A DNA stretch of 64,000 nucleotides from Candidatus Omnitrophota bacterium (lineage in GTDB: Bacteria > Omnitrophota > Gorgyraeia > Zapsychrales > Zapsychraceae): positions 68,451-132,450 of the forward strand of contig JADFXT010000002.1 of the NCBI GenBank assembly GCA_015233405.1, read 5' to 3'. Below are positions 20,728 through 40,441 of the stretch, one piece after another. The notes below the pieces were generated by a model. That model was given only the letters and a program-made list of their open reading frames with translations, was not told the origin of the DNA and made no database searches. The position numbers and the translations under genes were made by a program. Numbering within the stretch: the first letter of the stretch is position 1; each line of letters begins with the position of its first letter.

Positions 20728-21504
20728 TCATAATGTTTTCTTCTCTTTGGATTCGACCATGAGGATGTCTTTTAGGATCCTGACTAATCGTTCACGATTG
20801 ACAATAGGGATAAAACGCCCGTCGCAGGCAACAGAAATTTCCCCTGTTTCTTCAGAGACAATAATGACCACTGTGTCGGTTTGTTCCGTGATTCCTAAAG
20901 CAGCTCGGTGGCGCGTGCCGATAATTTTACTGAAATTCGGATTGTCGGACAGTGGAAATAAACACGATGCCGCAACGATTTGGTCTTCCCGTAAGATGAT
21001 CCCTCCGTCGTGCAAAGGGCTTTGGGGCGTAAAAATGCTTTGAATCAGCTCCGAGGAAACTTTCGCGCGAATGGCAACGCCGCTTTCAATATATGTTTTG
21101 AGCTTTGTCTCTCGTTCTAGTGCCATCAGACAACCGACTTTTTTTCTCGATAGTTTGAACGCTGCCGAGGTTAATTCCTCAATCACTTCGAGCATGGTTG
21201 ATTCCTCAAGCCCGAAGGAAAAAATATGGTGACGCCCCAGATGCGCCAATCCTTGACGGATCTCTTGCTGGAACACGATCATAAAAACGACAATGGAAAG
21301 CGCAAAAAATTTTGTCAAAAGCCAGTTAAGCGTGTTGAATCCTAAAAGCTGAAAAATAATAAACGCCAAAAGAAGATAGGCAATTCCGCGGAAAACTTGA
21401 AACGCCCGCGTGCCTTCAAAAAAAACAAGAACGCGATAATACGCGAACCATAAGATCGCGATTTCTAAGAAAGGTTTAATATGTCCCCACATTGCAAGTG
21501 TCAT
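20728..21504 (-). CDS. cdaA: diadenylate cyclase (membrane-anchored, CdaA type)
   Basis: Three N-terminal TM helices precede a DAC domain with LHDGGIILR and GTRHRAALGITE. Confidence 0.85.
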   Translation of the reverse strand: MTLAMWGHIKPFLEIAILWFAYYRVLVFFEGTRAFQVFRGIAYLLLAFIIFQLLGFNTLNWLLTKFFALSIVVFMIVFQQEIRQGLAHLGRHHIFSFGLEESTMLEVIEELTSAAFKLSRKKVGCLMALERETKLKTYIESGVAIRAKVSSELIQSIFTPQSPLHDGGIILREDQIVAASCLFPLSDNPNFSKIIGTRHRAALGITEQTDTVVIIVSEETGEISVACDGRFIPIVNRERLVRILKDILMVESKEKKTL

Positions 21505-26727: not shown

Positions 26728-28011
26728 TTAAAAGTTGTTTTTATATTTTATAAATATTTTGTCGTCGGGCAAATTAGGCTGAATTTGTTCTCCGGGCACG
26801 GGTTCTTTCTTTAATTCTTTCTCAACGCTGACGGTCACACAGTCCGTAACTTTAAGATCGCCCAGCATTTTGTATTTGATGTCTTTTGTCTTGTCCGTAT
26901 TTTTTATTTCTTCCACCTCACATCCGACATCAAGGGCATCGGACAAAGATTTCTTTATGCCCGCAGAGCGCGTGTTTTGGTCCATTTTGACCCAACCGTC
27001 TTTGATTCCCAGCTTTTGGGCCATTTTTTCGCCGGAGCCGCCGAGAAAAGCATAATCAAAGAAATCTTTGACCATGTCGGAGGAGATTTCATTTTTATTG
27101 ATCTGGCCCAAAGAATTTTCCAGAGAGTTCCAGCTTTTATTGGTCGCCAGCATCACCAATAACCGGTCTTGGGACAGCGGCGGGTCAGATGTGAGTTTTA
27201 AGATGGGATTCTTCATCGAGCCGCGCAGCGAGATATTTATTTTTGTCGTGTCAATGACGGAAGTCCCATTGACAAACAAAGATGGGCTGCTGCCGGGTTG
27301 TTCGAGGAATACGATGTTGCTTTTAGACAATGTTATTTCTGAATCCCGGGCTTTCAATAAACCTTTTTCACAATAGAGGCCGCCTTTGATCTTTAAGAAA
27401 TTCGGTTCTTTGCTGATATCGAGCGACACGCGTAAAGGCACGTCAAAGAGAGAAAAGTTCTTTGATGTGAATTTTTTAACGAGCATGGTCCCTTCCAGAT
27501 GAGGGTGCGTAACGCTCCCGCTGATTTGAAGTTGTATGCTTTCCATGGCCCCCGTCGTCTTTTCCCAAAAAGCGCTTTTTTTAGGGAACAGGTTGAGGAT
27601 ATTAGCCAGATCAAGGCTTGTGGAATACAGGTCAAGATTAAGGGTGCCGCCATAATAATTGCCTGAAAAGATGATGGGTTCTTCTTGAGACAAGATCAGC
27701 CGGGCGTTTTCTATTTTTACTTTAAACGGAGGGGTTAGTAAATTGAGGTCAAGCGTAAGGTCTTGAATGCGCAAAACATGTTTAGTGGCGATCCATTGGC
27801 TATTCTTGATCTCTACGTTTTTAAAAAAGATCCCTTTTAGAATCGTCCCGCTAATTTTCTCGACGGTGATTTGTTCGGCTTGAAATCGCTGTGTTATAAA
27901 ATAGCGGCCGAATAAGGATGCAGCGCTTTCCGTACAAAGGCCGTAATATAGGCTTGTTAATGCAAGAATTATACTTAAGAATATAAATGTTTTTAAATAA
28001 TTTTGTCTCAT
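26728..28011 (-). CDS. short TamB/AsmA-like (DUF490-like) envelope protein
   Basis: An N-terminal anchor helix is followed by a long region rich in predicted beta strands. The C-terminus, DKIFIKYKNNF, ends in an aromatic residue as in TamB-type tails. Confidence 0.4.
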   Translation of the reverse strand: MRQNYLKTFIFLSIILALTSLYYGLCTESAASLFGRYFITQRFQAEQITVEKISGTILKGIFFKNVEIKNSQWIATKHVLRIQDLTLDLNLLTPPFKVKIENARLILSQEEPIIFSGNYYGGTLNLDLYSTSLDLANILNLFPKKSAFWEKTTGAMESIQLQISGSVTHPHLEGTMLVKKFTSKNFSLFDVPLRVSLDISKEPNFLKIKGGLYCEKGLLKARDSEITLSKSNIVFLEQPGSSPSLFVNGTSVIDTTKINISLRGSMKNPILKLTSDPPLSQDRLLVMLATNKSWNSLENSLGQINKNEISSDMVKDFFDYAFLGGSGEKMAQKLGIKDGWVKMDQNTRSAGIKKSLSDALDVGCEVEEIKNTDKTKDIKYKMLGDLKVTDCVTVSVEKELKKEPVPGEQIQPNLPDDKIFIKYKNNF

Positions 28012-28121
28012 CGCAAGGGCTCCGGTTCTTTTTTGTTCAAAAATATTTTAACTGTTATCTCTTTGAAAACAAGATTAATTATTGGGAAATCTCAGAGAAT
28101 TAGGATAAAATAATTCCGCTT

Positions 28122-30542
28122 ATGAAAAAAAATCTGAATATAGAGCCCTTTCTTTTCTTGTTCGTTGTCCTCATTGAAGTATTCTTTGCTGCCCTTTTTG
28201 TTTTTTCGAAACGGATTGTCCTTCACGATTCTCTGCTGAATTTCTTCTCGCAGTATTACTTTTATAATAGCATTGCCATGCATAAAGAAATTCCGTTATG
28301 GGTTCCTTATATGACCCACGGGATCCCTTCAGCTTGGCGGTATGCCCTTCAAGGTGGAAACACCTTGCTGACGGATGTGTTTACTCTAGGCGGATTTTTT
28401 TTAAATAAGGTTGTTAATTTTCTCATCCTTTACCGGTTAGGGATCTTATTCAACAAGCTCTTTTTTCTCGTCGGCGTATGGCTTTTATCTCAAAAATATT
28501 ACCGGCACAGTTCAACACGTTTCTTTGTGGCCGCGTGCTGTATGGCCTCTACTGTTGTCGAAACACAGGTGAATTGGAATTTCCTGGCGTTTTACGCTAT
28601 CCCGCTTCTTTTTTATTTTTTTCATCAGTTTTTGGAGTCGCCCAAATGGCGCTATATTTTTTTGGGGATTAATTTGTTCTGCCTTCAGATTACAGGTAAC
28701 TACTCGCCGTACATTCCGATAATTTCATTGTTCGTTTTTCTTTATATCGTTTTTTACGGTTTTCTTCATCCGGCGGAGATCCGGTCAGCATTTTCTCAAT
28801 TGAAACGGCAAAGGTTCCCTTGGCTGTTTTTTGCCTGGACGTCCAGCGTGGTTCTTGCTTTAGGCTGCCTTTTGTATTTTGCCAAAGATCCCAATCTCGT
28901 CAGTATGATCTTTGGAAGGCAACAGGACGGCAGCGTTTCTCTTCAAACTTTTTTGACCTATGGCGGCAATTCGGGGTTAAGACTATGGAAAGAATTGTTT
29001 TTTGGATTCTCTCCTGCCATCGACCATACGGTATTTATCGGCTTTTTATCGCTGCCGTTGATGCTCATCGGCATTTTTCTGTCAAACGATAAAAAAAAGA
29101 TGCTTCCCCTCTTGGGAACGGGAATTGTTTTTTTATTATTTAGTTTATCCACGTTTGTTTCGGTCTTCTTTTATTATGTTTGGCCTTTGATGAAATTTTA
29201 CCGTCATCTGGCGTTGTCCGCGCCGTTTATAAAATTGTGTTTATGTTTTTTGGCCGGGTTTGGTTTTGAGACATTATTCTTCGATTTGATTCGTCGAGAA
29301 AGATCGTTAGCAAAAATTATGACGGTCTCTTTATCCGGGGCGATGATGTTTTCGCTGGCCTTATTATTATCAAAGCTGGCGGTTCAAATCCCTCTAGCAG
29401 AAAAAATGATCTCGAAAATGTTTCTTGAGGAAAGCATGTTCATCAATGATACGGTTCTGCCGTCTTTCTTCACAAAGGCATTTTTTTTAGGATCGATATT
29501 CCTGTTTGTTTATTCGATAGCTTTCTTTTGTTTATTCATTCTTCCTAAAAAATGGTTTAAGTTCGCTATCGGCGTATTCCTTCTGATGCATGCGGTCAAT
29601 ATGTGGGGATACGCTTACAGCGAGGGGATTCGACGGACGTTTCCCCTTAACAGCGTTCAATACAATTTCTTACGTTTTAAAAAAATGCCTTTTTATCCCC
29701 GAAGGCAGTTCGTAAAGCATTCTGTGAATGGAACATATTCCTTAAGGTCTAACAATGAAAGGAACATCCTGCTTAATGTAAGAGGTTTGCTGACCTATTC
29801 GCGGGACAATTCGTTAGATGCGTTCTTATTTAATGATTTTTTGTTTCATTTATTTCGGACAGACGTTCTGGAGAAACCCGTCGACAAATTGATTGAGATT
29901 TATCACAAGACGCCTTTTCAAAATACGTTTTTATATCAAAAAAATTTACAGATGGTGGAATTTTTAGGCGCGATCGAGAATATTCCTGTGCCGTATTTAA
30001 AAATAGCCGGAGTTTCCCAAGACAAACTGCAGGTGTTTAGCACTGCTTATGATTGTTCGGATGAGAAAAAGTTGGCAGCGTATTTGGTCGACGAGAAATA
30101 TCAAGGAAGCGTTTTGTTCGTCTCCAAAGGCCCGCAGGGTAATTCTCTGGAAAAAGTGCCGAACGATAACTCGGGATCCTTTTTGTCCGGGGACAATCGA
30201 GTATATATTCCCTGTGAAATTGTCTCTTTTTCTCCGAACACCTTAGAGGTTATTGTAGATATTATTGATAGGCCTTCCGCTTGGCTGTATTACAGCGACG
30301 CATGGCATCCTTTCTGGAAGGCCACGGTAAATGATAAATCGGTAGGTGTTTATAAAGCGGATATCGCTTATAAAGCGGTGCCATTGGTTAAAGGAATGAA
30401 TCGCGTGAAATTTTATTATGAGGACAATAAAACGGTTTTTCTGCAGTTCTTCTTCGCTTTAAATGGTTTGTTTTGGGTTGGAATGGGCCTTTATCTTGCC
30501 GGCAGGATATGCTTTAATCCTTGTAAAAATTCGTCTGCGTAG
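28122..30542 (+). CDS. YfhO-like polytopic membrane protein (putative GT-C glycosyltransferase)
   Basis: 806 aa and multi-TM. The C-terminal block, DAWHPFWKATVNDKSVGVYKADIAYKAVPLVKGMNRVKFYYE, matches the characteristic YfhO tail (GW.a.vdGk...i...n..f.gv.l..G.h.v.f.Y). Confidence 0.55.
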   Translation: MKKNLNIEPFLFLFVVLIEVFFAALFVFSKRIVLHDSLLNFFSQYYFYNSIAMHKEIPLWVPYMTHGIPSAWRYALQGGNTLLTDVFTLGGFFLNKVVNFLILYRLGILFNKLFFLVGVWLLSQKYYRHSSTRFFVAACCMASTVVETQVNWNFLAFYAIPLLFYFFHQFLESPKWRYIFLGINLFCLQITGNYSPYIPIISLFVFLYIVFYGFLHPAEIRSAFSQLKRQRFPWLFFAWTSSVVLALGCLLYFAKDPNLVSMIFGRQQDGSVSLQTFLTYGGNSGLRLWKELFFGFSPAIDHTVFIGFLSLPLMLIGIFLSNDKKKMLPLLGTGIVFLLFSLSTFVSVFFYYVWPLMKFYRHLALSAPFIKLCLCFLAGFGFETLFFDLIRRERSLAKIMTVSLSGAMMFSLALLLSKLAVQIPLAEKMISKMFLEESMFINDTVLPSFFTKAFFLGSIFLFVYSIAFFCLFILPKKWFKFAIGVFLLMHAVNMWGYAYSEGIRRTFPLNSVQYNFLRFKKMPFYPRRQFVKHSVNGTYSLRSNNERNILLNVRGLLTYSRDNSLDAFLFNDFLFHLFRTDVLEKPVDKLIEIYHKTPFQNTFLYQKNLQMVEFLGAIENIPVPYLKIAGVSQDKLQVFSTAYDCSDEKKLAAYLVDEKYQGSVLFVSKGPQGNSLEKVPNDNSGSFLSGDNRVYIPCEIVSFSPNTLEVIVDIIDRPSAWLYYSDAWHPFWKATVNDKSVGVYKADIAYKAVPLVKGMNRVKFYYEDNKTVFLQFFFALNGLFWVGMGLYLAGRICFNPCKNSSA

Positions 30543-30632
30543 TTTTTCCTAAAATTAGATTTTGAGGGTGAGTTCCTTATAGTCAATGGGGAGATTTTTT
30601 ATGATCTCGTCGTGGAAAGAATTTGAAAAAAA

Positions 30633-30708
30633 TGGTAGCGAGGGACGGGGTCGAACCGTCGACACTGCGGGTATGAACCGCATGCTCTACCAACTGAGCT
30701 ACCTCGCC
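30633..30708 (-). tRNA. tRNA with CAT anticodon (elongator Met, or Ile2 if lysidine-modified); CCA encoded
   Basis: The reverse complement reads GGCGAGGTAGCTCAGTTGGTAGAGCATGCGGTTCATACCCGCAGTGTCGACGGTTCGACCCCGTCCCTCGCTACCA. It folds as a cloverleaf with a 7-bp acceptor stem (G1:U72), a D-arm, anticodon stem TGCGG/CCGCA, loop TTCATAC and a GGTTCGA T-loop. It lacks the initiator features of three GC pairs in the anticodon stem and a 1:72 mismatch. Confidence 0.9.
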
Positions 30709-30856
30709 ACGAAATGAAATATTGATTAAGCGGTAATTTTTCTTCACAAAGAACGGTTGCAAATGGGTCCCGACCAAAGCGTCGGGGGCTGAACTATCCC
30801 ACGTGAACGGAAATTATAGCATAGATTTATTGGATTTCTACAGAAAAATTATTCGC

Positions 30857-31054
30857 TTATTTTTTATAAGTTTTAATAAAATTTTCAATGGAGCGGTCAT
30901 AGGTTTTCTCTGCATCCGACGGGAAATAGCAAGCCGGTAACGCGCCTTTTTTTCTGTGGTAATGCAGGCATTCGCAGCACAAACCTTTCCTCGAGCACCC
31001 CGAATAACTGCAGGTGCAAATCTCTAAATTTCTTATTTTATTTGGGCAGTTCAT
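30857..31054 (-). CDS. Cys-rich miniprotein (probable metal-binding), unknown function
   Basis: 65 aa, with 8 Cys and 2 His in the first 44 residues: C..(9)..CTC....C.....CCEC.H.H........C. Confidence 0.5.
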
Positions 31055-31082
31055 AAAAAAGCAAACTCCTTTCTGGTGTTAC

Positions 31083-32396
31083 TTATGGGGCAGTCAGAAG
31101 AAGCGAGGTGTTGGTAAAAAATGCTCCGGCCACACAGGCGGTCATTAAACACGCTAGCGTTGCTGCAATCAACGCCTGAAACGCTACTTTGCTAATGGTG
31201 GCGGTCCTTTCTGGCGCCAAGGCTGAAATCCCGCCGACAAAGATAGCCATTGATGCTAAATGGGCAAATCCGCACAAGGCATAGGTCGCAATCACGGCGG
31301 ACCGAGGATCTGTTAAAAGGTGCTGTTTTAGTGCTTCAGCAAGGTCTTTATAGGCCACGACTTCGGTGACGACCATCCGCTCTCCGATGATTTTAGAAAT
31401 AATACTAACGTCCTGCGCAGGAACACCTAAAATCCACGTCAGCGGATAGAAAATATATCCCAGGATGTTTTTTAGCGACCAGATGAATTGCCAATGGAAA
31501 ACCGTGTTCATTTTTCCGCCGAGAAATCCTAGGAAAAGGTCAAACAAGGACACCAGCCCTAAGACGGCGATCAAAAGAGCCACAATACCGACGACCATTT
31601 TAAGCCCCTCATTTGCGCCTTTGATGATCGTTTCAAAAAGTGAGCTGTCTTTATCATAATGCGGATGGATATGGACGCCTAAGGTCTTGGGCGTTTCCGT
31701 TTCCGGAACCATGATCTTGGACATCACAATGGCGGCGGGCGCGGATAATAAAGACGCGGCCATCAGATGGGCGGTAATCGTCGGAAATTGTTCGCGCAGC
31801 GTAAAGACGTACAGCGACAAGACGTTGGCCGCGATGGTCGCCATGCCGGCGGTCAGGATCGTGCAGAATTCCGAGCGGGTCATTTTTTTAATATGCGGCT
31901 TGACCGTTAAATTGGATTCGATGCCCATAAAAATATTGCTGGCCGTGACTAAGGATTCCGCGCCGGAGACTTTCATCAGTTTGGTAAACATCGTCGAGAA
32001 TGTGCGGATAATAATCGGCATAATGTTACAAAAATATAGGATGTTGATAAGTGCCGAGAAAAAGATGATCGTCGGGAAGCCCTGAAAGGCCAGGATAAAT
32101 CCCAGCGACCCCTCTCCGGCTCCATTGGTTTGCCCCGGGGACAGCGCCAGGCGGCCGAAGATGAATTCGGAGCCTGCGGACGCGGAGTTTAAAATTTTAC
32201 CGACGAGATCATTGAGGAATAGAAAGAATTTTGAGCCCGCGGGGACGATAAAGACAAAAAAGGCGATCAGGATTTGAAGAATGACCCCCCAGGCAATAAC
32301 GCGCCAATTCATTTTCCGTTTGTTATCGGAAAAAAGCCACGCTAAGGCCATGAGGATAAAAATGCCGCAGAAACTGATCAGGTTATAGATCGTCAT
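31083..32396 (-). CDS. concentrative nucleoside transporter (NupC/CNT family)
   Basis: 437 aa and multi-TM. GFILAFQGFPTIIFFSALINILYF and the C-terminal ALCGFAHLASMAIFVGG block are typical of CNT/NupC proteins. Confidence 0.8.
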   Translation of the reverse strand: MTIYNLISFCGIFILMALAWLFSDNKRKMNWRVIAWGVILQILIAFFVFIVPAGSKFFLFLNDLVGKILNSASAGSEFIFGRLALSPGQTNGAGEGSLGFILAFQGFPTIIFFSALINILYFCNIMPIIIRTFSTMFTKLMKVSGAESLVTASNIFMGIESNLTVKPHIKKMTRSEFCTILTAGMATIAANVLSLYVFTLREQFPTITAHLMAASLLSAPAAIVMSKIMVPETETPKTLGVHIHPHYDKDSSLFETIIKGANEGLKMVVGIVALLIAVLGLVSLFDLFLGFLGGKMNTVFHWQFIWSLKNILGYIFYPLTWILGVPAQDVSIISKIIGERMVVTEVVAYKDLAEALKQHLLTDPRSAVIATYALCGFAHLASMAIFVGGISALAPERTATISKVAFQALIAATLACLMTACVAGAFFTNTSLLLTAP

Positions 32397-32397
32397 T

Positions 32398-32700
32398 TTA
32401 AGTATAGAAAATGATGTAAAGAAGCAGAGCGATGAGGATTCCGGCTAACAAGTAAAAGTCGTTAAAATAAAAGAAGTCTTTGACCCTATCTATGGGAGAG
32501 TGCGGATATTCCAGGTTTTCTTTGACGACGTGCCCGCTATTACGCAGGGATAAAACCTCCGCTTTTTTAAGGCGCAGGAATTTATTGGCAATCCGGTAAG
32601 CCTGAAGTTTCTTTTCTTCAATCAGGTCCATGACCTTTTTTTCGGTTATGCCTAAAAGTTGCGCGGTTTCCCGCACGGATATGAATTGGGATGTTGACAT
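32398..32700 (-). CDS. excisionase-type HTH DNA-binding domain with a C-terminal transmembrane anchor
   Basis: The N-terminus, ISVRETAQLLGITEKKVMDLIEEKKLQAYRIANKFLRLKKAEV, fits the HTH_17/excisionase pattern. The C-terminal LLAGILIALLLYIIFY is a TM helix. Confidence 0.6.
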   Translation of the reverse strand: MSTSQFISVRETAQLLGITEKKVMDLIEEKKLQAYRIANKFLRLKKAEVLSLRNSGHVVKENLEYPHSPIDRVKDFFYFNDFYLLAGILIALLLYIIFYT

Positions 32701-32709
32701 AGAGAATTA

Positions 32710-33231
32710 TTATCTGCTTTGTGTCGCCCATCGGTCGATTTGGGCGCGTTCAAATTTCCAGGAATTATCAATTTTTTTCCCCGGGATCTCGCCGGAGTTT
32801 GCTAACCGTTCGATCTCGGACATGTCAATCTCGAGGTATTTTGCCACTTCGCCAAGGTCGAGAAGTCCGCTGTCTTCGGGCATCTGGCAGTTACCCTGGA
32901 AGAATGCGCCTTCGACGATATTGAGTTTTGGCGTCGAGATGTTTCCTCGTAAAACCGCCGTGGGCATGAGGACCAGCATTTTACGGGCCAGGATGTCGCC
33001 TTTGACTTTTCCCGCGATAATGATGCTGTCGCCGTTAACGTTCGCTTCCACCTGGGCGGTATTACCAATAGTCAAGGTCCCTTTGGTTTCGAGGCTGCCG
33101 TTAAAATCCCCGTTAATTTTTAAATTGACCGGGTCATTAAAAACCATGGTACCTTGCATCTTGGCATTGATTTCAATGATCTTATCGATTTCAGGTTCTT
33201 GCTTAAGATTTGATTTTGGTTTAAAGGCCAT
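32710..33231 (-). CDS. bactofilin (DUF583 beta-helix) fused to a C-terminal excisionase-type HTH domain
   Basis: The bactofilin repeat pattern is INGDFNGSLETKGTLTIGNTAQVEANVNGDSIIIAGKVKGDILARKMLVLMPTAVLRGNISTPKLNIVEGAFFQGNCQM. Then LDLGEVAKYLEIDMSEIERLANSGEIPGKKIDNSWKFERAQIDRW is HTH_17-like. A strong AAGGAG RBS lies upstream. Confidence 0.75.
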   Translation of the reverse strand: MAFKPKSNLKQEPEIDKIIEINAKMQGTMVFNDPVNLKINGDFNGSLETKGTLTIGNTAQVEANVNGDSIIIAGKVKGDILARKMLVLMPTAVLRGNISTPKLNIVEGAFFQGNCQMPEDSGLLDLGEVAKYLEIDMSEIERLANSGEIPGKKIDNSWKFERAQIDRWATQSR

Positions 33232-33260
33232 TTGGACTCTCCTTGATAAGGAAAATATTT

Positions 33261-33701
33261 TTAATTTTGTTCCTCTTTTGCATTTTGATGCAAGCGGCTG
33301 TCAATTGAACGCATACCGACGAGGACGATAAAAACAACCAGGGTCACCATCACGGCTGCGGTGTAATGACCGGCGCCGACGCTAATGCCGATACAAGACA
33401 CGATCCACAATGTCGCTGCGGTCGTAAGGCCGATGACCGACGGGCCGGAACGGATAATGGTTCCCGCGCATAAAAATCCGATTCCTGTGATGATATTGGC
33501 GATCATGCGGGTTGGGTCAATCACAACGACACCTTTGTATATATCAAAAAGGTATAGTGAAGTCAACACAATCAGGCAAGATCCTACCCCCACTAAAATG
33601 TGGGTCCGAAGTCCCGCAACTTTGGAGCGGACTTCTCTTTCCGCGCCGATGACGCTGCATAAGAAAATCGTTAAGACAATTTTAATAAATTCTTGCAGCA
33701 T
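33261..33701 (-). CDS. MgtC/SapB-family membrane protein (membrane domain only)
   Basis: Carries the GAEREVRSKVAGLRTHILV signature and four to five TM helices. At 146 aa it lacks the soluble C-terminal domain. Confidence 0.75.
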   Translation of the reverse strand: MLQEFIKIVLTIFLCSVIGAEREVRSKVAGLRTHILVGVGSCLIVLTSLYLFDIYKGVVVIDPTRMIANIITGIGFLCAGTIIRSGPSVIGLTTAATLWIVSCIGISVGAGHYTAAVMVTLVVFIVLVGMRSIDSRLHQNAKEEQN

Positions 33702-33715
33702 AAAAATTCTCCTTT

Positions 33716-34651
33716 CTATACATAATGATATGCCATTCCCGCGACCATGGCTGCGTTATCGACGCATAAAGCGATCGGCGGGAAGAAGGTTTCAATTCCC
33801 GATTTTCCTGCTGCCTCTTGTAATTTATTCCGTAAACTAGAATTGGCCGCAACACCTCCACCGACCAAGAGCGTCTTTGTTTTTAATTTTTGGCACGCGT
33901 CTAAGCATTTGTAGACGAGATTTTGGACCACGCTCTCCTGGAAAGCAAAAACGACATCTTCCACCTTTGCCTTAGGGTTGGATTTGGTGTAATAAAGCAC
34001 CGCGGTTTTAATTCCGCTAAAACTGAAATTAAATGTGTCTTTTAAAGGCGCGCAGCTAAATCGGATATTATTGTTCTTGCTGCTTTTTTGAGCCAAGCGG
34101 TCAATGACCGGCCCGCCGGGATATCCTAAATTTAGTATTCGCGCAACTTTGTCAAATGCTTCACCGGCAGCGTCATCAAGCGTGTGCCCAAGTAGTTTAA
34201 AGTTTTTAAACGAAGTGATCTGATACAAGCTTGTGTGTCCGCCGGAGACGATAAGCCCGATGGCCGGAAGTTTTGGCGATTTCTCCAATAGGAAATTCGC
34301 GTACAAGTGGGCTTTGATGTGATCTATCTCGACCAAGGGTTTGTTTAAAGCAAAACTTAAAGCCCGTGCAAACGACGTCCCGACAAGCAAGGATCCAATA
34401 AGCCCTGGCGAAGCGGTGACCGCAACAGCGTCGATATCGTTAAGTTTGATATGGGCATCGATTAAAGATTGCTCGACGATGCTGTTAATGAATTCTAAAT
34501 GATGGCGTGAGGCGATTTCCGGAATGATCCCGCCGAACTTAGCATGTTTTTTTAAACTTGTGACAACGACGTTGGACAGAATCGTTCGGCCGTCTTTGAC
34601 GACGGACGCAGCGGTTTCATCGCATGATGTTTCAATGCCTAAAATATTCAT
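33716..34651 (-). CDS. tsaD: tRNA N6-adenosine threonylcarbamoyltransferase
   Basis: Carries MNILGIETSCDETAA, SGGHT and VGGGVAANS. Confidence 0.9.
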   Translation of the reverse strand: MNILGIETSCDETAASVVKDGRTILSNVVVTSLKKHAKFGGIIPEIASRHHLEFINSIVEQSLIDAHIKLNDIDAVAVTASPGLIGSLLVGTSFARALSFALNKPLVEIDHIKAHLYANFLLEKSPKLPAIGLIVSGGHTSLYQITSFKNFKLLGHTLDDAAGEAFDKVARILNLGYPGGPVIDRLAQKSSKNNNIRFSCAPLKDTFNFSFSGIKTAVLYYTKSNPKAKVEDVVFAFQESVVQNLVYKCLDACQKLKTKTLLVGGGVAANSSLRNKLQEAAGKSGIETFFPPIALCVDNAAMVAGMAYHYV

Positions 34652-40042: not shown

Positions 40043-40441
40043 ATGGCTCCTTTAGGAAATCAGAAAAATACAAGTTCGCAAGATTCTGATCAAAGATATA
40101 TCCCCCGCTGGGAAGTGAGAAACCGCGTTTTATATTATCTCGACGATGAGAAAGTCCCGCATGAAGGTCAAACCAAGGATTTAAGTTGCGCTGGCGCCTG
40201 TCTTTGCTTAAACCAAGTCCCTGCCTCCGCTCAAAGAGTTAACATGGAGATCTTTTTGTCGGAAAAGAAAGTCGCTAAATTAGAAGGGCAGATCCGTTGG
40301 GTGAAAAGAACTAAAGATGAAACACAGGTAGGTGTTTCTTTTTCAAATGTGACCATTAAAGCTCAGGATTTGATCCTCGAGCATGCCTTCGCGATTTCTC
40401 CTAAGAATTATAATAACCTTTGGTTTCGAGGCTGGCAATAA
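40043..40441 (+). CDS. single-domain PilZ protein (putative c-di-GMP receptor)
   Basis: RYIPR (RxxxR) is followed about 24 residues later by DLSCAG (DxSxxG). A strong AGGAGG RBS lies upstream. Confidence 0.65.
   Translation: MAPLGNQKNTSSQDSDQRYIPRWEVRNRVLYYLDDEKVPHEGQTKDLSCAGACLCLNQVPASAQRVNMEIFLSEKKVAKLEGQIRWVKRTKDETQVGVSFSNVTIKAQDLILEHAFAISPKNYNNLWFRGWQ

What the first reader, a model, noticed from the sequence alone, without database searches (positions are those of the whole stretch)
32398..33231. Bactofilin fused to a DNA-binding HTH, paired with an HTH protein carrying a membrane anchor: a candidate DNA-tethering module
The gene at 32710-33231 encodes a full bactofilin beta-helix followed by an excisionase-type HTH (LDLGEVAKYLEIDMSEIERLANSGEIPGKK...RAQIDRW). 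Nine nucleotides downstream, 32398-32700 encodes the same kind of HTH at the N-terminus of a protein ending in a TM helix. Bactofilins are polymer-forming scaffolds. In Myxococcus they position ParB-parS through the adaptor PadC, and in Bacillus the MerR-type HTH protein RacA anchors the chromosome to DivIVA. Here DNA binding appears to be built directly into the polymer, with a second DNA-binding protein inserted in the membrane. That suggests a self-contained system tethering the chromosome, or another DNA, to a cytoskeletal or membrane site. I am not aware of a characterised bactofilin-HTH fusion.
Basis: partly seen in the sequence, partly recalled or inferred. Interest (0 to 1): 0.7.

Follow-up and report, generated by a model that had tools for sequence, protein, structure and literature searches.

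The report
Omnitrophota bactofilin-HTH fusion with membrane partner
A filament-forming scaffold protein fused to a helix-turn-helix domain, always encoded next to a small membrane-anchored helix-turn-helix protein, is a conserved, unstudied gene pair of the uncultured phylum Omnitrophota; the fused domain looks more like a protein-docking module than a DNA binder.

Summary
Window 32710-33231 (-) encodes a 173-aa bactofilin (PF04519, E 1.5e-24) with a C-terminal HTH_17 winged helix (E 7e-10). Nine nt downstream, 32398-32700 (-) encodes a 100-aa protein with an N-terminal HTH_17 and a C-terminal TM helix. The fusion is not an artefact: hundreds of independent contigs carry it, and every named one is Omnitrophota. 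In 80 of 80 loci with enough downstream sequence the small gene follows directly, often with an ATGA overlap. The setting is housekeeping (GatCAB, CtpA, TsaD, MgtC, then SNase, TilS, FtsH), not a mobile element.

The DNA-tethering interpretation is only partly supported. The fused HTH is always acidic (mean net charge -3.5). It has glutamates, or variable residues, where BldC contacts DNA phosphates and bases. The partner HTH is basic (mean +3.7) and resembles Pukovnik Xis and BldC.

My best reading (about 0.4): the tail-anchored partner is the membrane receptor or client of the polymer, through charge-complementary HTH contacts, as RodZ is for MreB and PbpC for BacA. Any DNA binding would come from the partner. 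I rate it an uncharacterised new variant of a known kind, of moderate interest.

The parts
32710..33231 (-). bacHTH gene: 173-aa bactofilin with a C-terminal HTH_17 domain (stop codon included)
   Evidence: ORF; Pfam; exact protein P0001 annotated 'polymer-forming cytoskeletal protein [Candidatus Omnitrophica bacterium]' on a 217-kb contig.
33237..33244 (-). Shine-Dalgarno sequence AAGGAGAG, 5 nt before the ATG
   Evidence: Sequence. A strong AAGGAGG-type site lies at the same place in all 63 related loci inspected.
33181..33231 (-). N-terminal tail (aa 1-17), MAFKPKS..., a basic membrane-targeting-like peptide followed by an acidic stretch
   Evidence: Family consensus M-A-[LF]-R-x-[RK]-[KR]. 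It resembles the global bactofilin membrane-targeting consensus MFSKKKK (PMC12448750). pLDDT is below 50 for residues 7-15.
32884..33180 (-). Bactofilin beta-helix core (aa 18-116)
   Evidence: PF04519 E 1.5e-24. The AlphaFold2 model has pLDDT 92-97 here. Foldseek: 6rib rmsd 1.5 A, 2n3d rmsd 2.0 A. Invariant glycines and F111.
32866..32883 (-). Short linker (aa 117-122); its length varies from about 5 to 30 aa in the family
   Evidence: Alignment A1.
32716..32865 (-). Acidic winged HTH (HTH_17, aa 123-172) fused to the bactofilin
   Evidence: PF12728 E 7.4e-10. Predicted winged-helix topology. Nearest folds are BldC 6ama, RdfS 8dgl and RacA 5i44. Net charge -3 here; family mean -3.5.
32701..32709 (-). 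9-nt intergenic spacer between the two genes
   Evidence: In relatives the spacing ranges from -4 (ATGA overlap, at least 9 loci) to +82 nt.
32398..32700 (-). Partner gene: 100-aa tail-anchored HTH_17 protein (stop codon included)
   Evidence: ORF; Pfam and NCBIfam; 769 homologues, almost all of 100-106 aa, every named one from Omnitrophota.
32545..32682 (-). Basic Xis/BldC-like winged HTH of the partner (aa 7-52)
   Evidence: PF12728 E 1.8e-7 and TIGR01764 above its cut-off. PDB sequence match to Pukovnik Xis 4j2n. Foldseek 4j2n rmsd 1.1 A at 32% identity, then BldC and RacA. Net charge +5 here; family mean +3.7.
32464..32496 (-). Juxtamembrane aromatic helix (aa 69-79, IDRVKDFFYFN); this motif is the most conserved feature of the partner family
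   Evidence: Alignments A3 and A5. The motif DFFYFN[DS]FY is kept in the deep-branching pairs L090 and L091. Predicted helix 69-79.
32401..32460 (-). C-terminal transmembrane helix (aa 81-100); nothing follows it, so this is a tail anchor
   Evidence: AlphaFold2 helix 81-99 with pLDDT 91-93; hydropathy.
33261..34651 (-). Conserved upstream context: tsaD (33716-34651) and mgtC (33261-33701), same strand, short gaps
   Evidence: Pfam. TsaD lies upstream in every related locus with enough sequence. MgtC lies between in roughly two thirds of loci.

Best explanation
The two genes encode a two-protein cytoskeletal module specific to Omnitrophota.

Protein 1 is a bactofilin subunit. It has a basic N-terminal peptide that resembles a membrane-targeting sequence, a normal beta-helix polymerisation core and, on a flexible linker, an acidic winged helix. 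Once polymerised, the filament displays a regular array of these acidic domains.

Protein 2 is made from the same transcript, often by coupled translation. It is a tail-anchored inner-membrane protein with a basic, Xis/BldC-like winged helix facing the cytoplasm, held about 20 residues from a strongly conserved aromatic juxtamembrane helix and the TM helix.

I propose that the partner is the dedicated membrane receptor or client of the polymer. The acidic HTH on the filament docks onto the basic HTH of the partner, or onto its juxtamembrane region. This fixes and patterns the filament on the membrane, or clusters the partner along the filament. It would work as RodZ's cytoplasmic HTH domain does for MreB and as the cytoplasmic tail of PbpC does for BacA. 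If the module touches DNA at all, it does so through the partner's basic HTH. The fused HTH could then either bridge to it or compete with DNA for it.

Shown here: domain content, predicted folds, membrane topology, phylum-wide strict co-conservation and gene order, opposite charges, and loss of canonical DNA-contact residues in the fused HTH.

Inferred: polymerisation, physical interaction of the two proteins, the HTH-HTH interface, and any DNA binding.
For: - Domains and folds.
- Obligate pairing: 80 of 80 assessable loci have the partner 6-98 nt downstream by tblastn on the same strand. At least 9 loci have an ATGA overlap. The pair is kept in deep-branching lineages whose flanking genes differ (L090, L091).
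- Opposite charge: fused HTH mean -3.5 (range -7 to -1, n=119); partner HTH mean +3.7 (range +1 to +6, n=117). Reference DNA binders: BldC +6, Pukovnik Xis +4.
- The BldC DNA contacts T27, T29 and K33 (phosphates) and K26 and R30 (bases), listed in PMC5859096, align with E139, E141, N145 and two unconserved positions in the fused HTH.
- The top inter-protein covariation is fused-HTH E139 and E141 with partner wing K40, a perfect 23/25 split.
- The partner's juxtamembrane and TM segments are more conserved than a passive anchor would need.
- Precedents: the RodZ cytoplasmic domain, which contains an HTH motif, binds MreB (PMC6052060). The bitopic client PbpC binds BacA and can replace its membrane-targeting peptide (PMC12448750). 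Bactofilins bind the HTH protein BacR, suppress its DNA binding and hold it at the membrane (PMC13649987).
- The setting is housekeeping, not mobile-element or defence.
Against: - No interaction was computed or measured.
- The E139/E141-K40 covariation coincides with one deep clade split, so shared ancestry may explain it.
- Every close structural neighbour of both HTH domains is a DNA-binding protein.
- The fused HTH keeps some basic wing residues (K/R153, K159, R162).
- A paralogous bactofilin-HTH clade has an equally acidic HTH (-7) but no tail-anchored partner. The acidic HTH must therefore have a function that does not need this partner.
- The partner HTH of the complete genome CP070807.1 has a net charge of only -1, so charge complementarity is not universal.
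- The bactofilin already carries a peptide that resembles a membrane-targeting sequence, so a separate anchor is not obviously needed.
Confidence: 0.4

Rival explanations
1. DNA-tethering module. Both winged helices bind chromosomal or other DNA. The polymer provides multivalent binding and the tail-anchored protein pins the DNA-polymer complex to the membrane, for nucleoid anchoring, segregation or occlusion.
For: - Both domains pass the HTH_17 threshold, and the partner passes the excisionase-domain threshold.
- The nearest folds are DNA-bound BldC, RacA, RdfS and Xis.
- BldC and RdfS bind DNA as head-to-tail oligomers (PMC11963761 abstract). An array of HTHs on a filament would suit that mode.
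- The partner HTH is basic, and very basic (+11) with a canonical recognition helix in lineage L090.
- Phylum-wide conservation in a housekeeping neighbourhood fits a core cell-cycle role.
Against: - The fused HTH is acidic in every clade and has Glu at phosphate-contact positions. The base-contact positions are not conserved. In BldC, single substitutions that remove a contact or add a negative charge (R30A, H46E, G44E) abolish binding.
- The partner has an invariant Asp and a conserved Glu at the BldC R30 and K33 positions.
- No conserved repeat or operator-like motif was seen next to the locus.
Confidence: 0.28
2. Partner-switch regulator of the BacR-BacEF kind. The small protein is a membrane-held transcription factor or nucleoid-associated protein. 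The acidic HTH on the polymer acts as a decoy that occupies its DNA-binding face. The assembly state of the filament would then control how much partner can reach DNA, or the reverse.
For: - In Bacillus and Geobacillus, bactofilins bind the operon-encoded HTH protein BacR near its HTH, reduce its DNA binding and keep it at the membrane (PMC13649987).
- Acidic against basic HTH.
- The top covariation involves the fused 'recognition helix' and the partner wing.
Against: - The partner is permanently membrane-inserted and has no extracytoplasmic part, so no obvious release or sensing step exists.
- There is no DUF4004 domain.
- No operator was found.
- The operon lies within housekeeping genes and often has its own constitutive-looking promoter.
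Confidence: 0.15
3. Excisionase, recombination directionality factor, mobile-element regulator or defence component that happens to be fused or adjacent to a bactofilin.
For: JGI names many members 'excisionase family DNA binding protein'. There are weak hits to MADS Mad1 (41 bits against a cut-off of 80) and to PADLOC mad1 (E 2e-4).
Against: - No integrase, transposase or defence genes are nearby.
- Synteny with GatCAB, CtpA, TsaD, then SNase, TilS and FtsH is conserved across the phylum.
- The Mad1 hits fall below the cut-offs and reflect only the shared HTH_17 fold.
Confidence: 0.02
4. The two proteins act independently: adjacent conserved genes with no physical or functional coupling.
For: No interaction has been shown. 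The paralogous bactofilin-HTH clade lacks the partner.
Against: Adjacency is 80 of 80, the order is fixed and start/stop codons overlap. The pair is also retained where all other neighbours differ.
Confidence: 0.08

Closest known systems
RodZ-MreB (membrane-anchored HTH protein bound to a cytoskeletal filament)
   Same: A single-pass membrane protein has an N-terminal cytoplasmic domain containing an HTH motif. That domain binds a cytoskeletal polymer rather than acting as a transcription factor, and links the polymer to the membrane (PMC6052060).
   Different: RodZ has an XRE-type HTH and a large periplasmic domain, and its filament is actin-like MreB. Here the HTH is the excisionase/MerR-like HTH_17 type and the protein ends at the TM helix. 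The filament is a bactofilin that carries an HTH of its own. The weak RodZ_C hit (E 0.07) is noise.
BacA-PbpC of Caulobacter (bactofilin plus bitopic membrane client)
   Same: A membrane-associated bactofilin with an N-terminal membrane-targeting peptide recruits a bitopic membrane protein through that protein's cytoplasmic N-terminal region. The client can substitute for the membrane-targeting peptide (PMC12448750).
   Different: PbpC is a cell-wall synthase with an unstructured tail, and it is not strictly operon-linked. Here the client has no extracytoplasmic domain, and both proteins carry folded HTH domains.
BacR (YhbD, DUF4004)-BacE/BacF of Bacillus
   Same: An HTH protein is encoded in one operon with bactofilins. 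The bactofilins bind it near its HTH, lower its DNA binding and hold it at the membrane (PMC13649987).
   Different: BacR is a soluble 200-plus-aa DUF4004 dimer encoded upstream of the bactofilins. Here there is no DUF4004. One HTH is fused to the bactofilin and the other is membrane-inserted, and the gene order is reversed.
RacA-DivIVA of Bacillus subtilis (chromosome anchor)
   Same: A MerR-like winged helix of the same fold (5i44 is among the top Foldseek hits for both proteins) connects DNA to a membrane-associated scaffold.
   Different: RacA is basic. It uses an Arg equivalent to BldC R30 and reaches DivIVA through a C-terminal coiled coil. The fused HTH here is acidic and lacks that Arg, and the scaffold is fused to the HTH rather than recruited.
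BacNOP-PadC-ParB/ParA of Myxococcus xanthus
   Same: A bactofilin scaffold positions chromosome-segregation proteins (PMC5703909).
   Different: That link runs through the ParB-like adaptor PadC. No ParB-like or ParA gene lies in this locus. A ParA/MinD-type ATPase is seen only next to the paralogous clade (L089).
BldC / Xis / RdfS family of minimal winged-helix DNA binders
   Same: Same fold and Pfam family. The partner HTH is 32% identical to Pukovnik Xis over 47 residues. These proteins oligomerise head-to-tail.
   Different: They are free-standing, strongly basic proteins. Neither protein here is free-standing, and the fused HTH has lost the DNA-contact chemistry.

Membership tests
Bactofilin (PF04519) | Bactofilin domain scoring above the Pfam gathering threshold | tested here: met
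   86.5 bits against 27.9, covering profile positions 2-98 of 98.
Bactofilin (PF04519) | Right-handed beta-helix core superposable on solved bactofilins | tested here: met
   AlphaFold2 pLDDT 92-97 over the core. Foldseek 6rib TM(target) 0.90 at rmsd 1.5 A; 2n3d rmsd 2.0 A. This is a predicted model, not an experimental structure.
Bactofilin (PF04519) | Short N-terminal membrane-targeting peptide (global consensus MFSKKKK) | tested here: inconclusive
   Family consensus M-A-[LF]-R-x-[RK]-[KR]. It has the hydrophobic-then-basic pattern described in PMC12448750, but membrane binding is untested.
Bactofilin (PF04519) | Nucleotide-independent polymerisation into filaments | not testable with these tools
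   Only indirect support: an intact core and an invariant terminal hydrophobic residue, F111.
Excisionase/MerR-like winged HTH (HTH_17, BldC family): fused domain | HTH_17 profile match and winged-helix fold | tested here: met
   39.4 bits against 27. Predicted beta-alpha-alpha-beta-beta-alpha topology. BldC and RdfS rmsd 1.3-1.7 A.
Excisionase/MerR-like winged HTH (HTH_17, BldC family): fused domain | Electropositive DNA-binding face: basic or polar residues at recognition-helix and wing contact positions | tested here: not met
   Net charge -7 to -1 in 119 sequences. E139 and E141 align with BldC T27 and T29. The K26 and R30 positions are unconserved. N145 aligns with K33.
Excisionase/MerR-like winged HTH (HTH_17, BldC family): partner | HTH_17 or 'excise' profile match and winged-helix fold | tested here: met
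   HTH_17 31.8 bits against 27; TIGR01764 32.3 against 28.8. Foldseek 4j2n rmsd 1.1 A. pLDDT of the HTH is only 56-68.
Excisionase/MerR-like winged HTH (HTH_17, BldC family): partner | Electropositive DNA-binding face | tested here: inconclusive
   Net charge +1 to +6. K21, K22, R36, K40, R43, K45 and K46 are conserved. However, an invariant D25 and a conserved E28 sit at the BldC R30 and K33 positions. Deep lineages range from +11 (L090) to -1 (L091).
Excisionase / recombination directionality factor (functional class) | Encoded in a mobile element next to an integrase or recombinase | tested here: not met
   Conserved housekeeping synteny; no integrase in the window or in the related loci.
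BacR/DUF4004-bactofilin operon | DUF4004 domain in the HTH protein | tested here: not met
   No DUF4004 hit for either protein at E up to 1.
BacR/DUF4004-bactofilin operon | Bactofilin binds the HTH protein and lowers its DNA binding | not testable with these tools
Only charge complementarity and one covarying contact candidate are available.
RodZ | N-terminal cytoplasmic HTH followed by a single TM helix | tested here: met
   Topology from Pfam, hydropathy and AlphaFold2.
RodZ | XRE-type HTH and periplasmic RodZ_C domain | tested here: not met
   The HTH is HTH_17, and the protein ends at the TM helix. It resembles RodZ in how it may work but is not a member of the family.
RacA-type chromosome anchor | Basic MerR-like wHTH with the base-reading Arg, plus a C-terminal coiled coil that binds DivIVA | tested here: not met
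   The fold is similar (5i44). The Arg position is variable in the fused HTH and Asp in the partner. No coiled coil is predicted.
PadC/ParB-bactofilin scaffold | ParB-like adaptor and ParA associated with the bactofilin genes | tested here: not met
   Neither is present in the window neighbourhood or in syntenic loci.

The most novel reading that the evidence does not exclude
Omnitrophota, a phylum of mostly ultra-small uncultured bacteria, carry a self-contained nucleoid-membrane tether as a core housekeeping feature. A bactofilin filament displays a periodic array of winged helices. Together with a tail-anchored Xis/BldC-like DNA binder, these assemble head-to-tail on DNA. The chromosome would then be fixed, segregated or excluded from the division site by a polymer with built-in DNA or adaptor domains. 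No ParB-like adaptor is encoded in the locus.
Probability: 0.25. Interest if true: 0.8.

Novelty: new variant of a known kind. Interest (0 to 1): 0.55.

Why it matters
Bactofilins are widespread scaffolds, but few of their clients and modes of attachment are known.

This pair would be the first case in which a folded adaptor domain is built into the polymer subunit and matched with a dedicated, co-translated membrane protein. It is conserved across an entire uncultured phylum and sits among core housekeeping genes, which suggests a basic role in cell organisation in Omnitrophota.

The system is small (173 and 100 aa) and easy to express. It makes three questions directly testable. Can an excisionase-type winged helix be repurposed as a protein-protein connector? 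How is a bactofilin coupled to the membrane? Is DNA part of the complex?

If DNA is involved, this would be a minimal chromosome-membrane tether of a new design.

Tried and rejected
- **Co-folding of the pair.** No complex model exists.
- **Metagenome scan with the diverse alignment A1.** It failed for lack of a conserved stretch. The closer alignment A2 worked.
- **PDB sequence search with the fused HTH.** It found only a designed TPR protein, which is noise.
- **Operator or repeat upstream of bacHTH.** I looked in 63 loci and found only the Shine-Dalgarno sequence and, where MgtC is absent, a sigma70-like promoter.
- **Inter-protein mutual information.** The top pairs (E139/E141 with K40) coincide with one clade split, so I treat them as a hint only. 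The charge correlation across pairs is weak (r = -0.23).
- **Recent duplication of the two HTHs.** Rejected for the window pair: BLASTP finds no in-register similarity. The deep-branching L091 partner does share 'LANSG.IP' with the fused HTH.
- **MamR, Mad1 and defence-system readings.** All hits fall far below the curated cut-offs.
- **Assembly artefact.** Rejected, because the fusion is found on hundreds of contigs from NCBI, JGI, ENA and Logan.
- **Taxonomic spread outside Omnitrophota.** Every named fusion protein is Omnitrophota. Two GTDB-set records are titled 'uncultured Planctomycetales' but share the Omnitrophota synteny.
Full report
**What is there**

On the minus strand, window 32710-33231 encodes a 173-aa protein and 32398-32700 a 100-aa protein. 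They are separated by 9 nt and lie in the same reading frame.

The larger protein matches Pfam Bactofilin over residues 18-116 (E 1.5e-24, 86.5 bits against a 27.9 cut-off). It matches HTH_17 over residues 123-172 (E 7.4e-10, 39.4 against 27).

The smaller protein matches HTH_17 over residues 7-52 (31.8 against 27) and the NCBIfam 'excise' domain (32.3 against 28.8).

An AlphaFold2 model of the larger protein (mean pLDDT 87) shows a beta-helix followed by a beta-alpha-alpha-beta-beta-alpha winged helix. Foldseek places the core on Thermus bactofilin 6rib (rmsd 1.5 A) and Caulobacter BacA 2n3d. It places the C-terminal domain on BldC, the RdfS excisionase, RacA and Pukovnik Xis.

The smaller protein is predicted as a winged helix (only moderate confidence, pLDDT 56-68). 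A linker follows, then a helix at 69-79 and a confident helix at 81-99 that ends the protein. Hydropathy agrees. Its nearest folds are Pukovnik Xis (32% identity, rmsd 1.1 A), BldC and RacA. Pukovnik Xis is also its only solved relative by sequence.

**Is it real and is it conserved?**

The exact protein is in NCBI as a 'polymer-forming cytoskeletal protein' of a Candidatus Omnitrophica MAG, on a 217-kb contig. The 120 best of 745 homologues all carry both Pfam domains at 62-80% identity, and they come from NCBI, JGI, ENA and Logan assemblies. An exhaustive HMMER search of 1.8 billion cluster representatives shows about 25-30 clusters at 50% identity that match over the full length. It also found distant fused members at 28-40% identity, which still score for both domains.

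A profile of those distant members recovered only fused proteins named Omnitrophota or Omnitrophica. The hits from other phyla lacked the HTH. Two genome records are titled 'uncultured Planctomycetales', but they share the Omnitrophota synteny.

The small protein has 769 homologues. Almost all are 100-106 aa, and every named one is from Omnitrophota. Mean column identity is 64-74%, and the juxtamembrane and TM segments are included in that conservation.

**Pairing**

I fetched 88 loci. Every one of the 80 with roughly 100 nt or more of sequence downstream of the fusion gene has a homologue of the small gene on the same strand, 6-98 nt downstream by tblastn. The eight without a hit have fewer than 145 nt of sequence left.

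Exact ORF calling in 52 loci gives spacings from -4 to +82 nt. At least nine loci have an ATGA stop/start overlap, which indicates translational coupling. All loci have a strong AAGGAGG ribosome-binding site.

The pair is also kept in deep-branching lineages whose other neighbours differ (L090). It is present in a complete 1.82-Mb genome (L091, CP070807.1).

**Context**

The wider synteny is GatC, GatA, GatB, an S41 (CtpA-like) protease, TsaD, MgtC in roughly two thirds of loci, BacHTH, HTH-TM, then SNase, TilS, FtsH, FolP and CdaA.

The window keeps this order. It has a lineage-specific insert of about 6.4 kb between the pair and SNase, holding NupC, a DUF6485 protein, tRNA-Met, an 806-aa membrane protein and a TamB-like protein.

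Nothing here suggests a prophage, an integrative element or a defence island. The Mad1 and MamR hits are sub-threshold echoes of the HTH_17 fold.

**Does the polymer carry a DNA-binding domain?**

- Over a 50-residue window, the fused HTH has a mean net charge of -3.5 (range -7 to -1, n=119). The partner HTH has a mean of +3.7 (range +1 to +6, n=117).
- The distant fused clades are also acidic, at -5 to -7. BldC is +6 and Pukovnik Xis +4.
- The BldC-DNA structure paper lists the contacts. Phosphate contacts are T27, T29 and K33. Base contacts are K26 and R30. Wing contacts are H46, R47 and R48. The substitutions R30A, H46E and G44E abolish binding (PMC5859096).
- Aligned by the conserved hydrophobic pattern, T27 and T29 correspond to E139 and E141 in the window's clade. 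In the second clade the acidity moves to position 142.
- K26 and R30 correspond to positions that vary freely. K33 corresponds to N145.

A recognition helix with glutamates at phosphate-contact positions and unconserved base-reading positions is not what a conserved DNA binder looks like.

The partner is better equipped. It has conserved K21 and K22 at the start of the recognition helix, and R36, K40, R43, K45 and K46 in the wing. It also carries an invariant D25 and a conserved E28 at the R30 and K33 positions. In lineage L090 the partner HTH is strongly basic (+11) with a canonical recognition helix. In L091 it is -1.

**Most likely mechanism**

The evidence has four parts:
- the pairing is strict and the two genes are often translationally coupled;
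- the two HTH domains carry opposite charges;
- the partner's juxtamembrane motif DFFYFN[DS]FY is strongly conserved;
- the polymer's N-terminus, M-A-[LF]-R-x-[RK]-[KR], resembles the bactofilin membrane-targeting consensus MFSKKKK (PMC12448750).

From these I infer a membrane-attached bactofilin scaffold whose dedicated receptor or client is the tail-anchored protein. The acidic HTH on the filament would dock onto the partner's basic cytoplasmic domain.

The strongest inter-protein covariation supports this. It links E139 and E141 of the fused 'recognition helix' with K40 of the partner wing. The pairing is E with K in 23 pairs and A/S/T with Q in 25 pairs, with no exceptions at position 139. 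However, it coincides with one deep clade split, so it is only a hint.

Three precedents exist:
- RodZ's cytoplasmic domain, which contains an HTH motif, binds MreB (PMC6052060).
- PbpC's cytoplasmic tail binds BacA and can replace its membrane-targeting peptide.
- Bacillus bactofilins bind the operon-encoded HTH protein BacR near its HTH, suppress its DNA binding and keep it at the membrane (PMC13649987).

I give this reading about 0.4. DNA tethering through one or both HTHs gets about 0.28. A BacR-like decoy or partner switch gets about 0.15. These readings overlap, because the partner could bind DNA and the polymer at once.

**What argues against my reading**

- All structural neighbours of both HTH domains bind DNA.
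- A paralogous bactofilin-HTH clade has an equally acidic HTH and no tail-anchored partner. It sits next to a ParA/MinD-type ATPase in one locus, and next to a histidine kinase and a sigma54 regulator in others. The acidic HTH must therefore have at least one other target.

**Comparison with known systems and novelty**

The larger protein is a bona fide bactofilin by sequence and predicted fold. Both HTHs are members of the HTH_17/BldC-Xis fold family, but the fused one fails the DNA-contact test.

The pair is not a member of the RodZ, BacR/DUF4004, RacA or PadC systems, because a defining feature of each is absent. It may work like the first two.

I found no paper that mentions this architecture. 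I therefore rate it as a new variant of a known kind: a bactofilin scaffold with a membrane client. It is phylum-specific, uncharacterised and of moderate interest. Interest would be high if DNA turns out to be part of the complex.

Noticed in passing
L089:866-5168 (Omnitrophica WOR_2, MHHD01000054.1); also L092, L093, L094: A paralogous Bactofilin+HTH_17 clade (P0327/P0434, about 28% identical to the window protein, HTH net charge -7) lacks the tail-anchored partner. In L089 it follows a 465-aa ParA/MinD/MipZ-type ATPase with a C-terminal AMPK1_CBM/CBM48 domain and two ORFs without Pfam hits. An MscS-like membrane protein and a PAS histidine kinase come after it. In L092-L094 it is followed by a histidine kinase, a sigma54 NtrC-type regulator and a receiver protein.
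   Followed up: partly
window 26728-32396: In other Omnitrophota the pair is followed directly by SNase, TilS and FtsH. This window has an extra block of about 6.4 kb inserted there: NupC nucleoside transporter (31083-32396), a Cys-rich DUF6485 protein (30857-31054), tRNA-Met (30633-30708), an 806-aa polytopic membrane protein with no Pfam hit on the opposite strand (28122-30542), and a TamB-like protein (26728-28011).
   Followed up: partly
L090:739-1056 and L091:4622-4930: The deep-branching partners differ strongly in HTH charge. L090 is +11 with a canonical basic recognition helix (SQRKLKRLVKKGRL). L091 (complete genome CP070807.1) is -1 and shares the motif 'LANSG.IP' with the fused HTH, which hints that the two HTHs are ancient paralogues. 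Both keep the juxtamembrane motif DFFYFN[DS]FY.
   Followed up: partly
L030, L075, L014, L028 (about 40-90 nt upstream of the bactofilin start): Where MgtC is absent, a sigma70-like TTGACT-N17-TATA(T/A)A promoter lies immediately upstream of the bactofilin-HTH gene. The pair can therefore be its own transcription unit. In the window it appears to be co-transcribed with tsaD, mgtC and nupC (gaps of 14, 29 and 1 nt).
   Followed up: no
L002 and L003 (CAYZIY010000006.1, CAZAPN010000031.1): Two genome records that carry the pair with typical Omnitrophota synteny are titled 'uncultured Planctomycetales'. Either the bins are mislabelled or the pair reaches a second PVC lineage.
   Followed up: no
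window 32630-33331 (+): A 233-aa ORF lies antisense to the bactofilin-HTH gene. It is a shadow ORF, and all homology evidence supports the minus-strand genes.
   Followed up: yes
window 40043-40441 (+): A stand-alone PilZ-domain protein (132 aa) is one of the few plus-strand genes in an otherwise minus-strand housekeeping stretch. A CdaA diadenylate cyclase lies at 20728-21504.
   Followed up: no
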